DNA of 64,000 nucleotides from Octopus vulgaris (GCA_951406725.2 OX597814.1:177320001-177384000); one strand, 5' to 3'; counted from the stretch's first letter, positions 32,260 to 61,851 are shown. Numbers and translations are program-made. The notes: generated by a model not told the origin, from the letters alone.

Positions 32260-33345
32260 TTATTTTTTGCCTAAACCAGCTCTCAAGGTCACTGGAACGA
32301 CAACCAGTGAAATTGAAATAATAACGACATAGAAAATAAAGAAAAGGCGATCAAATATCAAGGCAACTGCTTTCCATTCTCTTGCCAGCTTTTCTTTGCG
32401 GTCGGATTCGGCGAGTCGGTACATACTTTCAGTCACAAACTTTCTAATTGCTTTCACGTCTCTCTCAATTTGAATAAGTTCCTTACGTTTCATCAGACTC
32501 TCACAGCTTCCAGAGCCACCGCTAGCAACACAAGCACCAGCACCACCACTAATACTACTACTACCAATACTACTACCTCCTCCACCGCCGCCGCCGCCGC
32601 CACCACCACCACCACCACTACCACCGCCGCCGCCGCCACCTCCACCACCGCCGCCGCCACCACCTCCTCCACCACCACCACCACCATGTCCACCAACAGC
32701 ATGCCCACCACCACTACCACCAACGGCATGTCCACTACAACCACCACCACTATGACCACCACCATGACCACCACCGTGACCACCACCATGACCACCACCA
32801 CCGCCATGGTGGTGGTGGTCATGGCGTTCAGGATGCGCATGGCCGTGGCCGTGACTTCCTCCACCATGACTATGACCTCCACCGCCATGACTATGAGTAT
32901 GGCCATGACCTCCCGCATGAGTATGACTTGGGGTATGAGCATGGCTACCATGTGCATGGCCTCCATGCGCATGACCGCCACTAGCACATCCGGCACCCTG
33001 GTAAACACCGCCACTGCCATGGCTTCTTCCACCACTACTACTACCACCCGTGTGGTAAATCCCAGGACCGTGTCCACCACGATGATGTAGTGCGCGTCCG
33101 CAGCTACCCGGCATGTGCGAGTGGCCACCTGGACCTCCACTAATAATACTTTTGCTGGCTTCATGAGCTTCTCTCCAGCCGTCTGCCAGCCAATTTGTTT
33201 CGGAATCTACTCCGACAAAATGATTTCCATTAGCTGTAGTTCGAGATGGATTTTCTGAAGAAGTTTTCGTCTGTGTGTCTGATTCTGTTACATTTCCCAC
33301 GAGCCTGTTCATAAAGAAGATTCGAGCGAAAATTTCGAATGCAAG
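32260..33345 (-). CDS. nAChR subunit, terminal exon: MX, Gly/His-rich intracellular loop, MA helix, TM4, stop
   Basis: Acceptor tttctttcccgcag|CTT at 33345 (phase 0), with an open frame of 361 codons to TAA at 32262-32260. It ends ...IERDVKAIRKF...KLAREWKAVALIFDRLFFIFYVVIISISLVVVPVTLRAGLGKK, containing the EWKxVAxxxDRLF M4 signature of nAChRs. Confidence 0.93.
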   Translation of the reverse strand, partial: LAFEIFARIFFMNRLVGNVTESDTQTKTSSENPSRTTANGNHFVGVDSETNWLADGWREAHEASKSIISGGPGGHSHMPGSCGRALHHRGGHGPGIYHTGGSSSGGRSHGSGGVYQGAGCASGGHAHGGHAHGSHAHTPSHTHAGGHGHTHSHGGGGHSHGGGSHGHGHAHPERHDHHHHGGGGGHGGGHGGGHGGGHSGGGCSGHAVGGSGGGHAVGGHGGGGGGGGGGGGGGGGGGGGGGSGGGGGGGGGGGGGGSSIGSSSISGGAGACVASGGSGSCESLMKRKELIQIERDVKAIRKFVTESMYRLAESDRKEKLAREWKAVALIFDRLFFIFYVVIISISLVVVPVTLRAGLGKK

Positions 33346-41200: not shown

Positions 41201-41316
41201 AGTCTTGAGAAATTGTGGCACTTCCCCTCGGGGTCCATAAAAGGCCATGTTGACGACAAGGACGTTTAAGAAAGAAGACAAAGTGATAATCACCATGTTG
41301 AAGCAGTAGTAAATAC
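41201..41316 (-). CDS. nAChR subunit, TM3 exon
   Basis: Acceptor ctgtttcttttcag|GT ATT and donor ACT|gtaagt; 116 nt, phase 1 to 0. Encodes (G)IYYCFNMVIITLSSFLNVLVVNMAFYGPRGEVPQFLKT, a typical M3 helix and post-M3 segment. Confidence 0.95.
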
Positions 41317-44638: not shown

Positions 44639-45627
44639 TACGACAGAGAATCAAAAATTATATACGCACTCTAGATTTTTACAATGTATTTACACAAAAG
44701 CAGCGGTTAAACAAGTACGTTATTTTTCTATATAATCGCCATCTTTTTCGATGCATTTGATCCAGCTTAATCCATTTGCGTAATGGTTTCAACGGTCTGA
44801 GCGACCGTGTTTGGGCGTGCTTTATCATTCAACAAGAAAATTTTCTTAGACAATAGGCTTCGGCGTTTGGTGCGAATTGCTGGCTTCAGTTTGTTGGACA
44901 GCAAAGCACTCTATCCTGTACTGTTGATCGTACATCCCTTTTCTAGGTAGTCTTCCAGTATAGGCCATTTGATTCCCAAAAAAGTGTTAGCATCACCTCT
45001 CCCGCAGATGACTGAGCCTTGAATTTCATTGTCGCTGGTGAGCCAGGATGTTTCCACTCCATACTCTTTCTTTTGGATTCTGGACCAAGGATGGACCCAA
45101 AGTTCATAAGGATGGACCCAAAGTTCATCTCCTGCGACTATTGTGCACAAAAATTCCTCGCCCTCATTGTTGTAGCGATCGGATAAATGTTAACAGGCCT
45201 CAAGACGTTTGTGCTTGCGCTCTTTAGTAAACTCTCTTGACACACATCTGGCATAGACTTTATGGAAGCCGAGCAAAATCATGACTAATCAGCAGAGAGC
45301 GAGCTGCCTCATCGAAAATAACTTGCCGGTTCAGTGGTTGAGGTTGACGGGCTTCCCCGAATTGTGCTAAAATCCTCCGATGAATTTCAGAACCTGACAC
45401 ATCTTTCAGCAGAGAAATCGGATCAGTGTTCTTTGTTCTTTTTGGTGCACATTGCGAGTGAAGCGGCCCTGCTTATACTGTAAAGTTAGAAAGAAAAATG
45501 GCGCTTTCAGGCTCAAATTTCGATCACATGATCACAATAGTACCAACTATAAGAACGCATGCACAGAAGGCAGAGAATAAAAATATGTTATGTCGAAAGT
45601 GCAGATAATGTTTGACTTCCCTTCGCA
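44639..45627 (-). mobile_element. Tc1/mariner DNA transposon relic
   Basis: Frameshifted transposase segments IVAGDELWVHPY and PESKRKSMEWKHPGSP..KFKAQSSAGEVMLTLFW match the mariner GDE.W / SAGKVM.TVFW motifs. Degenerate TIRs are TACGACAGAGAATCAAAAATTAT and its counterpart ending at 45627. There is an internal 21-bp tandem duplication at 45087-45128. Confidence 0.85.
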
Positions 45628-46163: not shown

Positions 46164-48120
<1,957 letters not shown>

Positions 48121-53681: not shown

Positions 53682-53765
53682 CAAGCAAAGGCACGGTTGA
53701 TGCTGACGGTAAACTGGATTCCAAAATAACCAAGAGTAAGAAAAACGCCACAAAAATGTTAATAC
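53682..53765 (-). CDS. nAChR subunit, TM2 (pore-lining helix) exon
   Basis: Acceptor ttttatattctag|GT ATT and donor CTT G|gtaaga; 84 nt, phase 1 to 1. Encodes (G)INIFVAFFLLLVILESSLPSASTVPLL(G), the M2 helix and M2-M3 loop ending in VPLLG. It is in frame with both neighbouring exons. Confidence 0.95.
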
Positions 53766-55611
53766 CTAGAATATAAAACAAATAAAGAAACATAATTAAT
53801 ATAGTTAACATTAAGAAAATTCTACACATTTAGTCTTTTCATTTTGCAGAGAGCAACAATTCAAAGAAAAAACTTGTTACAAAGAAAGAAAAAATTAAAG
53901 TTCTTGGTTAATTGACGAGTGAAGTCATTTGGTTTTCCGTATTAGTATGAAGATGATAGAAATGATAGGAAAATTTTCAGCTTCCTACCAACATGAGAGG
54001 TTTACTTAGACCCCAGCGGCTCAGTTGGCAATTAGATCAGCGACTAGTTGATATTGACTGTGTGTAGGAGTCTCAAATTGCAGAAAAATCCAAGAACAAG
54101 CAGGAACACGTTTCCCGAGATAAATTTGAAATTATATCTTAGCCTGTGAAAGAGTTACAGAAACTATGAGTGATTTTCTCAACTTCTTCGGCTCGCGTAA
54201 ACGACACTGTAGAGAATACTAATGCCCACATCATTTAACAGATACCAGCCAAATTGAAATGGAACAAAACTGTTCATTATGTAGTTGCCGTTAATGCTGT
54301 ATCTAGCACAGTTTCTCAATTCTCTTTAGTCCCCTGCTATTCTCTCTCACATTCTGAAAGTGAAACTGAAATTAGAGGAGACCATTATGCTCTCACTATA
54401 AGTAGATGCACGAAAATTCTGTCCGTGTAAAAAAAAAAAAAGTAACTGTTAGTGTGATCTTTTATAACTAGTTGTACTAAGCGAATAGCTGCTTTAATTT
54501 TACGTACTTCCACCATCTTACCAAATAAGCTATTTCATTTCAAAAGCTTCCAGGATTCAGAGTAACTGTCTTTTTCTGTGACCATCAAGGACCTTCATGA
54601 ATTGTTACTCGGCGTTGCTGGAATACAACTAACAAGTTTAGGATTCTATAATGGGTATTTTTATGTTGAACATTAATGTGTTGAGACAAACAGTAATCTT
54701 TCCATTAGTCCGCCAAAGCGAAGAGTAAGATATGTTGTATTCCACCAGAAATCAAATTGGATAAAACACATCTCTGTTAAAATTTCTTTTGAATTCAAAG
54801 AAAATTTATGAAGAAAACAAAGTTGGCGTTTTCTTATATCATAAAGTAAAAAATATCAATGAATACAGTCAAGAATACACTTCAGAGAATCCCGAAAAAA
54901 AATCAAACTTTTCACATTTATCTGCATTGCAAAAACAAAGTATATGCACATAAAAAATTCCTTACGTAAAGTCTTGTTATATGTTTAGTCATTTAAGTCT
55001 AAAATAATATGTTTCAAAATCTTCTAAATATTTGCTCCACGAGCAACACCATCTACGTCTTTGAGGATGTATTTGGACACACACACACAAATAGTTAAAA
55101 GGCAAAGAGGATAACTACGGACAATTCCGAAACTTCATGCTGCTAATTCCAAATTATAAGATCAAAATTTATACCTATATCTGTTGAAGCGCTTGGCTTT
55201 GTCTGTATATCCCTAAATGACAATCTGATTAAAGCTAGGGTTTTCAGAAAACGAATTAATTCAATTAACTTGCACATTGCAAATACAATCTGTAAGTAAA
55301 AATATGCAAGAATTTTCAGAAGTTTAAAAAGTGACTTGGCTTTTGTTATCTACTTTCCAACGATGGAGCTTTGCATCTTTGTTAGAAATCAGCTCCTTCT
55401 CCAGAAGAAGAATTCAAGTAATATATATATATACATATATATACAAACATATACTCACACAAACATACACTTATATGAATTTAAAGAGAGACAAAAAAAG
55501 AGATGATATATATATATATATATATATAATATATATATGCACACACACAAATATACAGACTTTATAACATATTTAATATACATATATATATATACATACA
55601 TATATATTTAC

Positions 55612-55654
<43 letters not shown>

Positions 55655-55786
55655 CATGTAAGTATATATATATATACATGTATATGCATATATGTATATA
55701 TATTCATAGATATATATATATACGTATACATATATATGTACATATATGTATATATACATATATATACATATATATACATGCATATA

Positions 55787-55821
<35 letters not shown>

Positions 55822-55910
55822 ACATATATACATGCATAAATATATGTACATATACATATATACATATATATGTATGTATGTATATATATATATATATATA
55901 CACATATATA

Positions 55911-56002
55911 GGCGCCGGATTGGCTGTGTAGTAAGTAGCTTGCTTACCAAACACATGGTTCCAGATTCAGTCCCTCTGCGTGGCACCTTGGCCAAGTGTC
56001 TC
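55911..56002 (+). mobile_element. SINE family A, 5' fragment
   Basis: GGCGCCGGATTGGCTGTGTAGTAAGTAGCTTGCTTACC...TGGCACCTTGGCCAAGTGTC matches the family head. Confidence 0.8.
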
Positions 56003-56600
56003 CAAATACATAGGCTCTGAGCACATGAGCCTCGAAAATCAGAATGATTGTAAATGAGAAATCACGATAAAAAGCGAGAGGAAGATCACTGCAAAAGATT
56101 GAGTTGTGATTTTAATTTCCTTTCTTTTCTTTGTACATTTCTTCACCCTTCCACTTTTTGAATCAATCTTCTCATTTTTTTCGTGATTTGTCATGTAGTA
56201 GCGTACTGATTTTTGAAAATAAAACAGACCAAGTTCTCAGAGCCTCGCGACTGCTTGGAGACACAAGGCATGTTATAAAAACCTACCGAGACATGTCTCC
56301 AAATCAAGAACCTATAAGTAGCTCGTAATTTTTATACTGTATACATTAAGTGTTGTTTATCTCTCATTGGATAGATGAGTTTTTTGTTGATTCTATCTTA
56401 CCGGAACAGTAAACTACACACACACACAAACACACGCACACGTACACACACACATACACATATACACACATTAACTGATTTGATGTTATATTAATAATAC
56501 AAAATATTGTTAAACATGTGGTCGCATGGCATATGTTTGTCGTTAAATCTTTATTGCAATATAAATCTAGACAATACATATCATTAATTTAGTAAAATAC

Positions 56601-56834
56601 TCTTTTACTCTTTTACTTGTTTCAGTCATATGACTGTGGCCATGCTAGATTACCGTCTTTAGTCGAGCAAATCGACCCAAGGACTTATTCTTTTAAGCCT
56701 AGTACTTATTTTATCGGTCACTTTTGCCGAACCGCTAAGTTACGGGGACGTAAACACACCAGTATCGGTTGTCAAGCGATGTTTAGGGGAACAAACCCAG
56801 ACACAGAAACATATACACTCACAAACATACATGT

Positions 56835-56869
<35 letters not shown>

Positions 56870-57175
56870 GGGGGAGTTTAGGAAAGAGACAAAAGACGAA
56901 GACAGGTGGTGTACAAAACAAACAGATGTATTAGTATAACGCTCAGGAATAGAAAAAGTCTTTTACGTTTCGAGCCTACGCTCTTCTACAGAAAGGGACA
57001 CAGAAAACAAACGACGGGCTTCTTTCAGTTTCCGTCTACCAAATTCACTCACAAGGCTTTGATCGACCCGAGGCTATAGTAGAAGACACTTGCCCAAGGT
57101 GCTACGCAGTGGGACTGAACCCGGAACCATGTGGTTCGTAAGCAAGCTACTTACCACACAGCCACTCCTACGCCT
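56601..57175 (-). mobile_element. SINE family A, full length, with a hammerhead-bearing insert at about 56870-57010
   Basis: Reverse complement of the 40262-40672 family, with an extra approximately 140-bp segment inside its microsatellite. Confidence 0.85.
56960..56995 (-). ncRNA. Minimal hammerhead-like motif (variant core), on the sense strand of the nAChR intron
   Basis: Minus strand CUUU CUGUAGA A GAGC GUAG GCUC GAAA CG UA AAAG has the same architecture as 48220-48254. The core has U at the conserved A6 position. Confidence 0.55.
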
Positions 57176-57304
57176 TTAAGAAATTTATGCACATCTTAAT
57201 ACACTCTTGAATCAAAACTTTTGAAATTCGACGCTGAATAAAGAAAAAAATCAATAGAAGAAAAATATACAGTAAAAACAATAAAAAACATTCGCATTAC
57301 TTAC

Positions 57305-57680
57305 CCAAAGCCATCTTGGCTGGGGATTCCGGAGGTATCCAGAAGAGAACCAATGTAAGAGTTGAAAGTAAAATGCACGGCAAAATCAATAGGTAGTTGT
57401 AAAAGGCCGAACGCCGCCTGACCTTAAGTGTAAAAGTCAGATCAAGATATGGCTCTGGACAGCAAGTATAATACTGTACATTTCGGCGGGCAGGAGCTTC
57501 GATTATTTCCCATGCATTACTGGGCATGTATTCAGACAGATCGATTTTGGTTAAGTTGTCCAGAAAATTAACATCCAGTTTATTACCGTCGTACGTCCAT
57601 GACCCAAATTTTAGAACACATTCTTGTTCATCAAATGGAAAATGGCTGATGTCTATAGCACATGAACTTTTGTAGATAAC
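57305..57680 (-). CDS. nAChR alpha-type subunit, exon encoding Cys-loop, loops B/C, TM1 and the M1-M2 linker
   Basis: Acceptor tttatag|GTT at 57680 and donor TTG G|gtaagt at 57305 (376 nt, phase 0 to 1). Translation: VIYKSSCAIDISHFPFDEQECVLKFGSWTYDGNKLDV...QYYTCCPEPYLDLTFTLKVRRRSAFYNYLLILPCILLSTLTLVLFWIPPESPAKMALG. It contains the C-x13-C Cys-loop, loop-B WTY, loop-C vicinal CC and TM1. Confidence 0.97.
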
Positions 57681-60312: not shown

Positions 60313-61851
60313 TACGAGTGTTATACTGAATGTAATGTAAACGCAGGCATAACTTTTTATTTTATTGCCTGACATAGGAATTTCAAATTCTATATGTTGG
60401 TAGGTCAACTCTTCCACTATATATATATATATATGTACTACTGCGACATAATTTCTATCAAAAGCAATGCATTTGTATTATTGTGGACCAAACTTTCGAA
60501 TTCGCTTTGAAAATACTCAGGTATGCACTGCTGTACCCACTTATCCGTAGCCATTTTCACCTTCTCTATGTCATGAAATCTTTGTCCTTGGAAACTGCCC
60601 ATTGTTTGATCAAGCGAGTAGAAGTTGGTGGACGCTGGATCAATGATATACGGTGTATGGGGAGGGTGCACTGGCAGGTCCAGTTTGCCAATTGTCTGAT
60701 ATGTAGCCAAAGACGTGTGATGTCATGCATTGTCAGAGTCACTGTTGATAGCTTCTAGATTCTTTTTTGGTTCTTGTTAATGGATTCGTTAATCATTTTG
60801 AGTGTCTCAATGTACTGCTTGCTGGTTACAGCACTATAGCGTTCTAGAAGATCAAGTAGAATGACTACCTTGTCATCGTACTCACACCAAAAAATACAAT
60901 TACTATGACTTTCTGTGGAGGTGCAATTGGCCAGTGGTTAGGGCAGCGGACTCGTGGTCGGAGGATCGCGGTTTCGATTCCCAGATCGGGCGTTGTGAGT
61001 GATTATTGAGCGAAAACACCTAAAGCTCCACGGGGCTCCCGCAGGAGGTGGTGGCGACCCCTGTTGTACTCTTTCGCCCCAACTTCCTCTCACTCTCTTT
61101 TCCCGTTTCTTGAGTAACGCTGCGATGGACTGGCGTCCCGTCCAGCTGGGGGGAACACATACACCACAGAAACCGGGAAACCGAGCCCATGAGCCTGGCT
61201 AGGCTTGAAAAGGGCGCATAAATAAATAAATAAAAAAATGACTTTCTGTACTGTGTTTTGGCTCTTGCTATTTTTAGACCTTGCAGAAAAGGTGTGAAAC
61301 CATTCTATGGACTGAGCATTTCGTTCCGGATCATAAAGAAGCGCTCACGTTTTGTGTCATGTCATCAGATTGGAAAAAAATCTCTTCATTGACTGCAAAC
61401 CCTTTCAACAGATCAAAGTAGACTTCCACCATCTCTATCTTTTAAATCGATTGCTAGGTACCGAAGTACCGACTTTCACATACTTGCCAATACTCCAAAT
61501 ATTTCGCCACCTTCTGCAACGTATTGCGACCAGAGCTGTGCACCAAGTTGTGCACCAAACACACAGATCCATCAGTGTATATTGCACTTGTCAAAGTTGT
61601 CATCTATGCAACAGCCTGCAGACTTCTATGGATGTCGGACAGCTATCATTCCCACTTCATAAAAACTCGATAACATTTTGCTGCTTCCCCTCAGAAGCCA
61701 GCATTTGCATGCGATGAAGAGCAGGAAAAATAGTTATGCTGCTGTTGAGAATGAGTTGCTCTACCAATATGCACGAGCTGTTTGAATGACCTGTGTCTGT
61801 TAATAAAAAAAGTAATGCCTACTTTTGTATTAATTTTATATAACCCTCGTA
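60313..61851 (-). mobile_element. Tc1/mariner DNA transposon relic interrupted by a SINE
   Basis: TIRs TACGAGTGTTATA..AGGCATAACTTTTT and (reverse complement) TACGAGGGTTATA..AGGCATTACTTTTT with TA ends. The decayed C-terminal transposase HPPHTPYIIDPASTNFYSL..FQGQRFHDIEKVK resembles HPPYSPDLAPSDF. Confidence 0.8.
60917..61237 (+). mobile_element. tRNA-derived SINE (third family) with 12-bp target-site duplication
   Basis: A-box-like TGGCCAGTGGTTAGG and B-box-like GGTTTCGATTCCC, internal CTGCGATGGACTGGCGTCCCGTCCAG, and a (TAAA)n tail. The TSD ATGACTTTCTGT is at 60905-60916 and 61238-61249. Confidence 0.88.

What the first reader, a model, noticed from the sequence alone, without database searches (positions are those of the whole stretch)
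53682..57323. Alpha-type nicotinic subunit with an anion-channel selectivity filter (ESPAK)
Seen: the M1-M2 linker and M2 read PPES-P(-2')A(-1')K(0')-MALGINIFVAFFLLLVILESSLP, with PAK encoded at 57323-57315. The cation-selective GEK glutamate ring is replaced by Pro-Ala, and 20' is Ser rather than Glu. The ACh-binding alpha features (loop-B W, loop-C YTCCPEPY) are intact. Established: -2' Pro with a neutral -1' residue is the GlyR/GABA-A anion signature, and anion-selective nAChR-clade subunits are known in molluscs (e.g. Lymnaea LnAChR B). Inference: this is an inhibitory ACh-gated chloride channel subunit, rather than one of the atypical octopus chemotactile receptors, which lack the canonical ACh-site residues.
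Basis: partly seen in the sequence, partly recalled or inferred. Interest (0 to 1): 0.7.

Follow-up and report, generated by a model that had tools for sequence, protein, structure and literature searches.

The report
Known octopus chloride-type acetylcholine receptor subunit
This octopus gene encodes an acetylcholine-receptor subunit of an already described family whose tested members pass chloride, so it likely helps silence nerve cells; it is probably a published gene that gave no current on its own in frog oocytes.

Summary
The PAK codons lie at 57323-57315, the exons splice as read (contigs of 4 of 4 runs), and the ACh-site residues are intact. The finding is ordinary: 101 of the best 120 homologues carry ESPAK. 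The gene falls in the published lophotrochozoan AChRB clade, in the LnAChR K subclade (100/100). This genome has three such genes, matching AChRB1-3 of a 2025 octopus preprint. There AChRB1 was shown to be an ACh-gated chloride channel, while AChRB2 and AChRB3 were silent as homomers. Accession order suggests this gene is AChRB2 (inferred, about 80%). The 20' Ser argument is not diagnostic. Two points are new here. A 211-aa Gly/His tract sits in the M3-M4 loop, seen only in octopod orthologues. The public O. sinensis and O. vulgaris models lack M4, so the full 706-aa subunit may never have been tested. An earlier scan note describes a paralogue elsewhere in this genome.

The parts
57305..57680 (-). 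Coding exon 5 of 8: Cys loop, loops B, F and C, M1, M1-M2 linker, start of M2
   Evidence: both splice ends seen in contigs of 4 of 4 runs
57315..57323 (-). Pro(-2') Ala(-1') Lys(0') anion-type filter motif
   Evidence: read directly; PPESPAK is identical in LnAChR B, I and K and in both octopus paralogues
57597..57599 (-). Loop-B Trp of the ACh site
   Evidence: W in 54 of 54 aligned rows
57447..57470 (-). Loop C YTCCPEPY with vicinal cysteines (alpha-subunit mark)
   Evidence: CC in 54 of 54 rows
53682..53765 (-). Coding exon 6: M2 and M2-M3 loop (84 nt; 13' Leu, 19' Glu, 20' Ser); the only M2 exon in the window
   Evidence: loose-end match; M2 profile scan gave one hit at 44 bits, next best 2.5
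41201..41316 (-). Coding exon 7: M3 and start of the cytoplasmic loop
   Evidence: tblastn, AG/GT ends and frame; length fits the spliced contigs
32260..33345 (-). Coding exon 8: MX region, long cytoplasmic loop, MA helix, M4, stop TAA
   Evidence: open frame of 361 aa; spliced contigs enter at 33345; MA/M4 helix predicted in the Argonauta orthologue
32509..33141 (-). 211-aa Gly/His/Ser low-complexity tract in the M3-M4 loop (104 G, 37 H, 26 S; run of 22 Gly)
   Evidence: present in O. bimaculoides and Argonauta orthologues; pLDDT below 50 in the model; one spliced contig reads into it as far as 32849

Best explanation
This is an intact, spliced, eight-exon octopus gene for a 706-aa alpha-type nicotinic subunit of the AChRB (PAK) clade, LnAChR K subclade, which likely contributes to an acetylcholine-gated chloride channel, probably as a partner of AChRB1 or AChRB3 rather than alone. 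Shown: gene structure, complete ACh site, PAK filter, clade. Inferred mechanism: ACh binds the aromatic box at subunit interfaces and the M2 helices open. The Pro-Ala-Lys ring, which lacks the -1' Glu, admits Cl- and hyperpolarises or shunts the cell. The disordered Gly/His loop would affect trafficking, anchoring or modulation, not selectivity. It is probably the published AChRB2 (LOC115229990).
For: Exons 1-4 lie outside the window at G000:C1:177389591-177596006; the eight exons give 2121 nt with one stop and match XP_036363179 at 348 of 361 positions. ACh-site residues of loops A, B, C and D are all present. The PAK clade is 100/100 in IQ-TREE (41 rows) and 0.83 in FastTree (90 rows, with more divergent members); the K subclade is 100/100 and 1.0. 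AChRB1 from O. bimaculoides shifts reversal potential in low chloride but not in Na-free solution (preprint section 8). LnAChR B and SmACC-1 are described as chloride channels (passages). The genome gives three PAK receptor genes and the preprint names three. AChRB2 assignment: the O. sinensis proteins of the other two genes are XP_029637701 and XP_029639166 (1465 apart), matching LOC115212977 and LOC115214201 (1224 apart) in order. The O. bimaculoides AChRB1 clone XM_052969792.1 fits XP_052825752.1 of the B-clade paralogue if the XM-XP offset is 144040. A silent subunit that shifts a partner's EC50 has precedent in nematode LGC-47/ACC-1 (passage).
Against: No current or ion selectivity has been measured for this subunit or, in what I could read, for any K-subclade member. 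If it is AChRB2, it gave no current to the preprint's 18-ligand screen as a homomer. The gene-ID match rests on accession arithmetic: an independent anchor failed, the offset was not verified, and the preprint's supplements are closed. Heteromer formation is untested ('heteromer' occurs 0 times in the preprint). The octopod branch is long (0.34-0.41), so function may have drifted.
Confidence: 0.7

Rival explanations
1. It forms a homomeric ACh-gated chloride channel, and the published silence came from a truncated clone or poor expression.
For: All 3 O. sinensis models and the O. vulgaris model retrieved lack the MA/M4 segment; the older O. bimaculoides model lacks the loop A/E exon. The 633-nt repeat tract could hinder cloning (inference). 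It has both principal and complementary (loop D Trp) site residues. O. vulgaris AChRB1 itself expressed less robustly than its O. bimaculoides orthologue.
Against: The cloned sequence could not be seen. The authors used three octopus genomes to catch annotation errors. AChRB3 and DopC2 were also silent, and the AChRB3 candidate's public model does include M4, so silence needs no special cause.
Confidence: 0.17
2. This gene is AChRB1 itself, the proven ACh-gated chloride channel of photoreceptors and optic-lobe neurons.
For: It is one of only three PAK genes and lies on the same contig as the B-clade paralogue; no table mapping LOC IDs to sequence was seen.
Against: Both accession arguments point to the paralogue at C1:63.4 Mb, which is also the LnAChR B counterpart (71.6% versus 57.7% identity over the trimmed alignment).
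Confidence: 0.06
3. It has diverged to another ligand or to cation or mixed selectivity, or it is a non-conducting accessory subunit.
For: Long octopod branch, 19' Glu, an M2-M3 loop one residue shorter than in LnAChR B or K, an unusual loop, and probable silence to the 18 ligands screened.
Against: Complete canonical ACh site and an unchanged PPESPAK; 19' Glu occurs in 31 of 139 PAK subunits, including LnAChR K.
Confidence: 0.06
4. It is a cephalopod chemotactile receptor.
For: Only that it is an octopus nicotinic-family gene.
Against: It has 7 introns and keeps loop-B W and CC. The intronless C15 cluster genes sampled (6 of about 22 matches) carry GEK (6 of 6), lack both residues in the 5 where that region was read, are about 26% identical (2 compared) and form their own clade.
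Confidence: 0.01

Closest known systems
Octopus AChRB1-3 (bioRxiv 10.1101/2025.04.02.646353)
   Same: Same clade and PAK motif; three members in O. vulgaris, three here. This gene is probably AChRB2.
   Different: AChRB1, the functional one, is probably the C1:63.4 Mb paralogue, 58.7% identical. This gene has 13' Leu, 19' Glu, 20' Ser and a 336-aa M3-M4 loop against a median of 136.
Lymnaea LnAChR K (ABA60389) and the molluscan K subclade
   Same: Same subclade (100/100), 60.4% identity over the trimmed alignment, PPESPAK, 19' Glu.
   Different: No Gly/His tract in LnAChR K. I could read no functional data for K.
Lymnaea LnAChR B (ABA60381) and Schistosoma SmACC-1
   Same: Nicotinic-derived chloride channels with the Pro-Ala motif; LnAChR B has the same PPESPAK and is 57.7% identical.
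   Different: Different subclade; LnAChR B has Glu at 20'. SmACC-1 itself was not identified among my sequences; an S. mansoni PAK subunit (57.8% identical) was used in the tree.
Vertebrate alpha7 nAChR (best solved structure)
   Same: Fold, ACh site and M1-M2 linker length.
   Different: Cation-selective GEK filter; about 35% identity.
GlyR / GABA-A and nematode ACC chloride channels (PAR motif)
   Same: Pro-Ala-basic motif linked to anion selectivity (passages).
   Different: A different branch of the superfamily; convergent motif. This gene has no inserted residue relative to alpha7, whereas GlyR has one (recalled).

Membership tests
Nicotinic alpha subunit | Cys loop, ligand-binding domain and four TM helices | tested here: met
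   Pfam LBD and TM; M4 in exon 8; model and fold search of the Argonauta orthologue
Nicotinic alpha subunit | Vicinal cysteines in loop C and the aromatic box (loops A, B, C, D) | tested here: met
AChRB / LnAChR B-F-I-K / SmACC clade | PAK (Pro-Ala) motif in place of the -1' Glu | tested here: met
   definition from passages
AChRB / LnAChR B-F-I-K / SmACC clade | Groups with LnAChR B, I, K and the flatworm PAK subunits inside the nicotinic branch | tested here: met
   100/100 in IQ-TREE, 0.83 in the wider FastTree set; LnAChR F was not among the named sequences
AChRB / LnAChR B-F-I-K / SmACC clade | ACh-gated chloride current | not testable with these tools
   Shown for AChRB1; AChRB2 and AChRB3 silent as homomers
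Octopus AChRB2 (LOC115229990) | Sequence identity with the published gene | tested here: inconclusive
   Accession order supports it; no ID-to-sequence table was reachable
Cephalopod chemotactile receptors | Intronless gene | tested here: not met
   Eight exons over about 244 kb; the intronless feature is from a passage
Cephalopod chemotactile receptors | Altered ACh-site residues; membership of the CR clade | tested here: not met
   the C15 genes are taken as CRs from their intronless cluster and missing residues, not from a name given by a call

The most novel reading that the evidence does not exclude
The full-length 706-aa subunit has never been tested, because the usual gene models drop M4. 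It is the unidentified inhibitory ACh receptor of the optic-lobe medulla, and its octopod-specific 211-aa Gly/His cytoplasmic tract is a metal- or pH-sensitive, or condensate-forming, module that tunes or clusters a chloride-conducting nicotinic receptor.
Probability: 0.08. Interest if true: 0.6.

Novelty: already known. Interest (0 to 1): 0.22.

Why it matters
The family and its chloride selectivity are published, so the filter motif alone adds nothing. What is useful is a corrected gene model. The O. sinensis and O. vulgaris public proteins lack M4, so a published 'no current' result for what is probably this gene deserves a retest with the full-length protein and with its two paralogues. 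That bears on an open point in the preprint: which receptor carries cholinergic inhibition in the optic-lobe medulla, where AChRB1 is scarce. The Gly/His loop is a curiosity with no function shown.

Tried and rejected
Gene-ID mapping. A full-text search for the three LOC IDs and three XP accessions found only the preprint. The readable supplements of PMC9712504 did not hold the IDs; one PDF was not searchable. Searches for papers pairing XP with LOC, or XM with XP, numbers found 0. A tyrosine-hydroxylase anchor failed: I took one of three hydroxylase genes for TH from a recalled motif, and the search returned 4 proteins, none octopus.

Further PAK genes. The degenerate pattern gave 7 matches; 4 lie in non-receptor frames.

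A second M2 exon in this gene: none in the window.

Extracellular and MA-helix net charge did not separate PAK from GEK subunits usefully; dropped.

In one search my loop A column was the second Tyr of the motif. The correct column is Tyr in 52 of 54 rows.

Support labels printed were shifted by re-rooting; values quoted come.

No run holding the exon is on record as RNA, so expression rests on spliced contigs only. Positions 32523-32765 were skipped by the tool as repeat, so the poly-Gly core is not covered by contigs. The 32801-33029 joint has a 20-letter side and was not counted.

ESM Atlas gave no answer. A search for prior mention of a His-rich loop in an octopus nicotinic receptor listed 11 of 13 papers, none on this by title or abstract start. 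No complex was folded, since two nicotinic subunits would tend to pass by likeness to solved pentamers. van Nierop 2005 and 2006, the 2015 octopus genome paper and van Giesen 2020 were not held.

Full report
Observation. The window is AT-rich animal DNA. On the minus strand, an exon at 57680-57305 encodes the second half of a nicotinic ligand-binding domain, M1 and PPESPAKMAL (Pfam; alpha7 best among solved structures). An 84-nt exon at 53765-53682 completes M2. The PAK codons are at 57323-57315 as stated. Contigs from 4 of 4 runs laid end at both exon borders, and the loose letters on the 3' side match the M2 exon. These runs are RNA only by the tool's guess, but spliced contigs imply a transcript.

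The gene. The protein is identical over this exon to annotated Octopus sinensis and O. vulgaris proteins. Two more exons lie in the window, 41316-41201 (M3) and 33345-32260 (loop, MA, M4, stop), all with AG/GT ends in one frame. Four exons lie upstream, the first about 200 kb from the second. Together they give 2121 nt and 706 aa with a single stop. In two runs one contig of the same length and depth appears in both, and its coordinates fit exons 5-6-7-8 joined. One of them reads into the Gly/His tract as far as 32849. ACh-site residues of loops A, B, C and D are all canonical. A model of the Argonauta orthologue has the usual fold with the loop disordered (mean pLDDT 66), and its best structural match is alpha7.

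How common the motif is. Of the best 120 of 342 homologues listed, 101 have ESPAK, 4 ESPTK, 12 GEK/GER and 3 other. They come from molluscs, annelids, a brachiopod and flatworms. In this genome, of the 30 loci, 3 have PAK, 17 GEK/GER, 3 other motifs, and 7 were not readable at that site. A genome-wide pattern search gave 7 matches: these 3 genes and 4 non-receptor hits. Among 139 PAK subunits, 20' is Glu in 53, Asp in 47 and Ser in 9, and 19' is Glu in 31.

Tree. FastTree used 90 rows and 313 columns. IQ-TREE used 41 of those rows, chosen by me for run time. Supports were read by bipartition. PAK subunits form one clade (100/100; 0.83 in the wider set). The three octopus genes fall one each into the LnAChR B (96.8/98), LnAChR I (99.2/100) and LnAChR K (100/100) subclades, and this gene is the K member. 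Intronless C15 genes taken as chemotactile receptors are a distant separate clade; the two compared are about 26% identical. Several own-genome rows are single exons, so deep nodes among the cation channels are not reliable.

What is published. For bioRxiv 10.1101/2025.04.02.646353 I read the abstract, sections 6, 8 and 19, and passages; its supplements are closed and bear directly on gene identity. It reports AChRB1 (LOC115214201) as an ACh-gated anion channel (EC50 1.9 uM) and states that all genes of the group carry PAK. It says the two other O. vulgaris members, AChRB2 (LOC115229990) and AChRB3 (LOC115212977), gave no current as homomers. PMC4055736 (passages) defines the Pro-Ala nicotinic chloride clade in Schistosoma and Lymnaea. 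PMC4193815 (passages) cites LnAChR A and B as the cation- and anion-conducting types. PMC13174522 (passages) counts 457 molluscan AChRB sequences. PMC9962794 (passages) gives a nematode precedent for a silent partner subunit. PMC6896357, PMC8414863, PMC9712504 and 10.1101/2025.06.15.659772 (passages) added little; the last reports AChRB absent from cephalopod venom glands. The primary Lymnaea papers were not held.

Which AChRB is it? This step is inference. The O. sinensis proteins of the I-clade and B-clade paralogues are XP_029637701 and XP_029639166. If gene and protein numbers were issued in roughly the same order (my assumption), they pair with LOC115212977 (AChRB3) and LOC115214201 (AChRB1), which leaves AChRB2 for this gene. 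Separately, the AChRB1 clone XM_052969792.1 fits XP_052825752.1 in the B-clade cluster under an offset of 144040 that I could not verify. An attempt at a third anchor failed. I put AChRB2 at about 80% and 'not AChRB1' at about 94%.

Mechanism. Shown: an intact alpha subunit with the same intracellular filter as a paralogue proven to pass chloride. Inferred from Cys-loop channel knowledge and from the paralogue: ACh opens a pentamer whose Pro-Ala-Lys ring lacks the -1' glutamate, giving chloride flux and inhibition. Because it was probably silent alone, I favour co-assembly with AChRB1 or AChRB3 (untested). The main rival is a homomer missed for technical reasons. All three O. sinensis models and the O. 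vulgaris model retrieved lack MA/M4, and the older O. bimaculoides model lacks the loop A/E exon. A clone built on them could not work, but I could not see what was cloned.

The loop. The M3-M4 loop is 336 aa (33% Gly, 12% His), against a median of 136 aa (5%, 2%) in 162 distinct PAK proteins, which include isoforms. Only the O. bimaculoides and Argonauta orthologues share both enrichments. The 12 longer loops belong to flatworm proteins and are not Gly/His-rich. Among 141 further representatives, the richest 100-residue stretch held 34 Gly+His, against 61 and 64 in the orthologues. No full-length squid or cuttlefish orthologue was identified, so 'octopod-specific' means only 'seen in octopods alone here'. 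Flanks are near-identical between Octopus and Argonauta while the tract drifts, which fits a tolerated repeat expansion better than a conserved module.

Verdict. Real, correctly read, and an already known gene of a known family. Interest 0.22, mostly for the corrected model and the retest it suggests.

Noticed in passing
window 32509-33141 (-): 211-aa Gly/His tract in the cytoplasmic loop, shared with O. bimaculoides and Argonauta orthologues and not seen in the other PAK subunits examined.
   Followed up: partly
public models P0003, P0124, P0125, P0004, P0129: Four models lack MA/M4 and one lacks the loop A/E exon. The terminal peptides of the O. sinensis and O. vulgaris models were not found in the window.
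   Followed up: partly
L003 (G000:C6, about 1.63 Mb), proteins P0149 and P0206-P0216: The I-clade paralogue has two M2 variants (13' Val or 13' Leu) among its isoforms. The Leu variant is 28 aa, like this gene's only M2 exon, against 29 aa for the Val form.
   Followed up: partly
window 46530-47390 (+): 286-aa open frame in the intron that looks like the C-terminal part of a LINE reverse transcriptase (resemblance recalled; no Pfam hit).
   Followed up: no
window 44911-45189 (-) and 60438-60722 (-): Short frames resembling mariner transposase fragments (recalled resemblance; no Pfam hit).
   Followed up: no
L026 and L029 (G000:C21, about 36.2 Mb); L023 (C1, 180.19 Mb): Nicotinic-type genes with unusual filters: SKER in L026 and L029, FADK in L023, in place of SGEK.
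   Followed up: no
G000:C15:56.9-57.4 Mb (L033-L038): Tandem cluster of about 22 long open frames of divergent nicotinic-like genes, consistent with the chemotactile receptor cluster.
   Followed up: partly
L049:620-650 and 910-940: Inverted repeat of several hundred bases that by chance encodes PPESPAKM on both arms; not a receptor exon.
   Followed up: yes
G000:C1:177396182-177595929: First intron of about 200 kb. The public isoforms differ at the N-terminus, suggesting small alternative exons.
   Followed up: no
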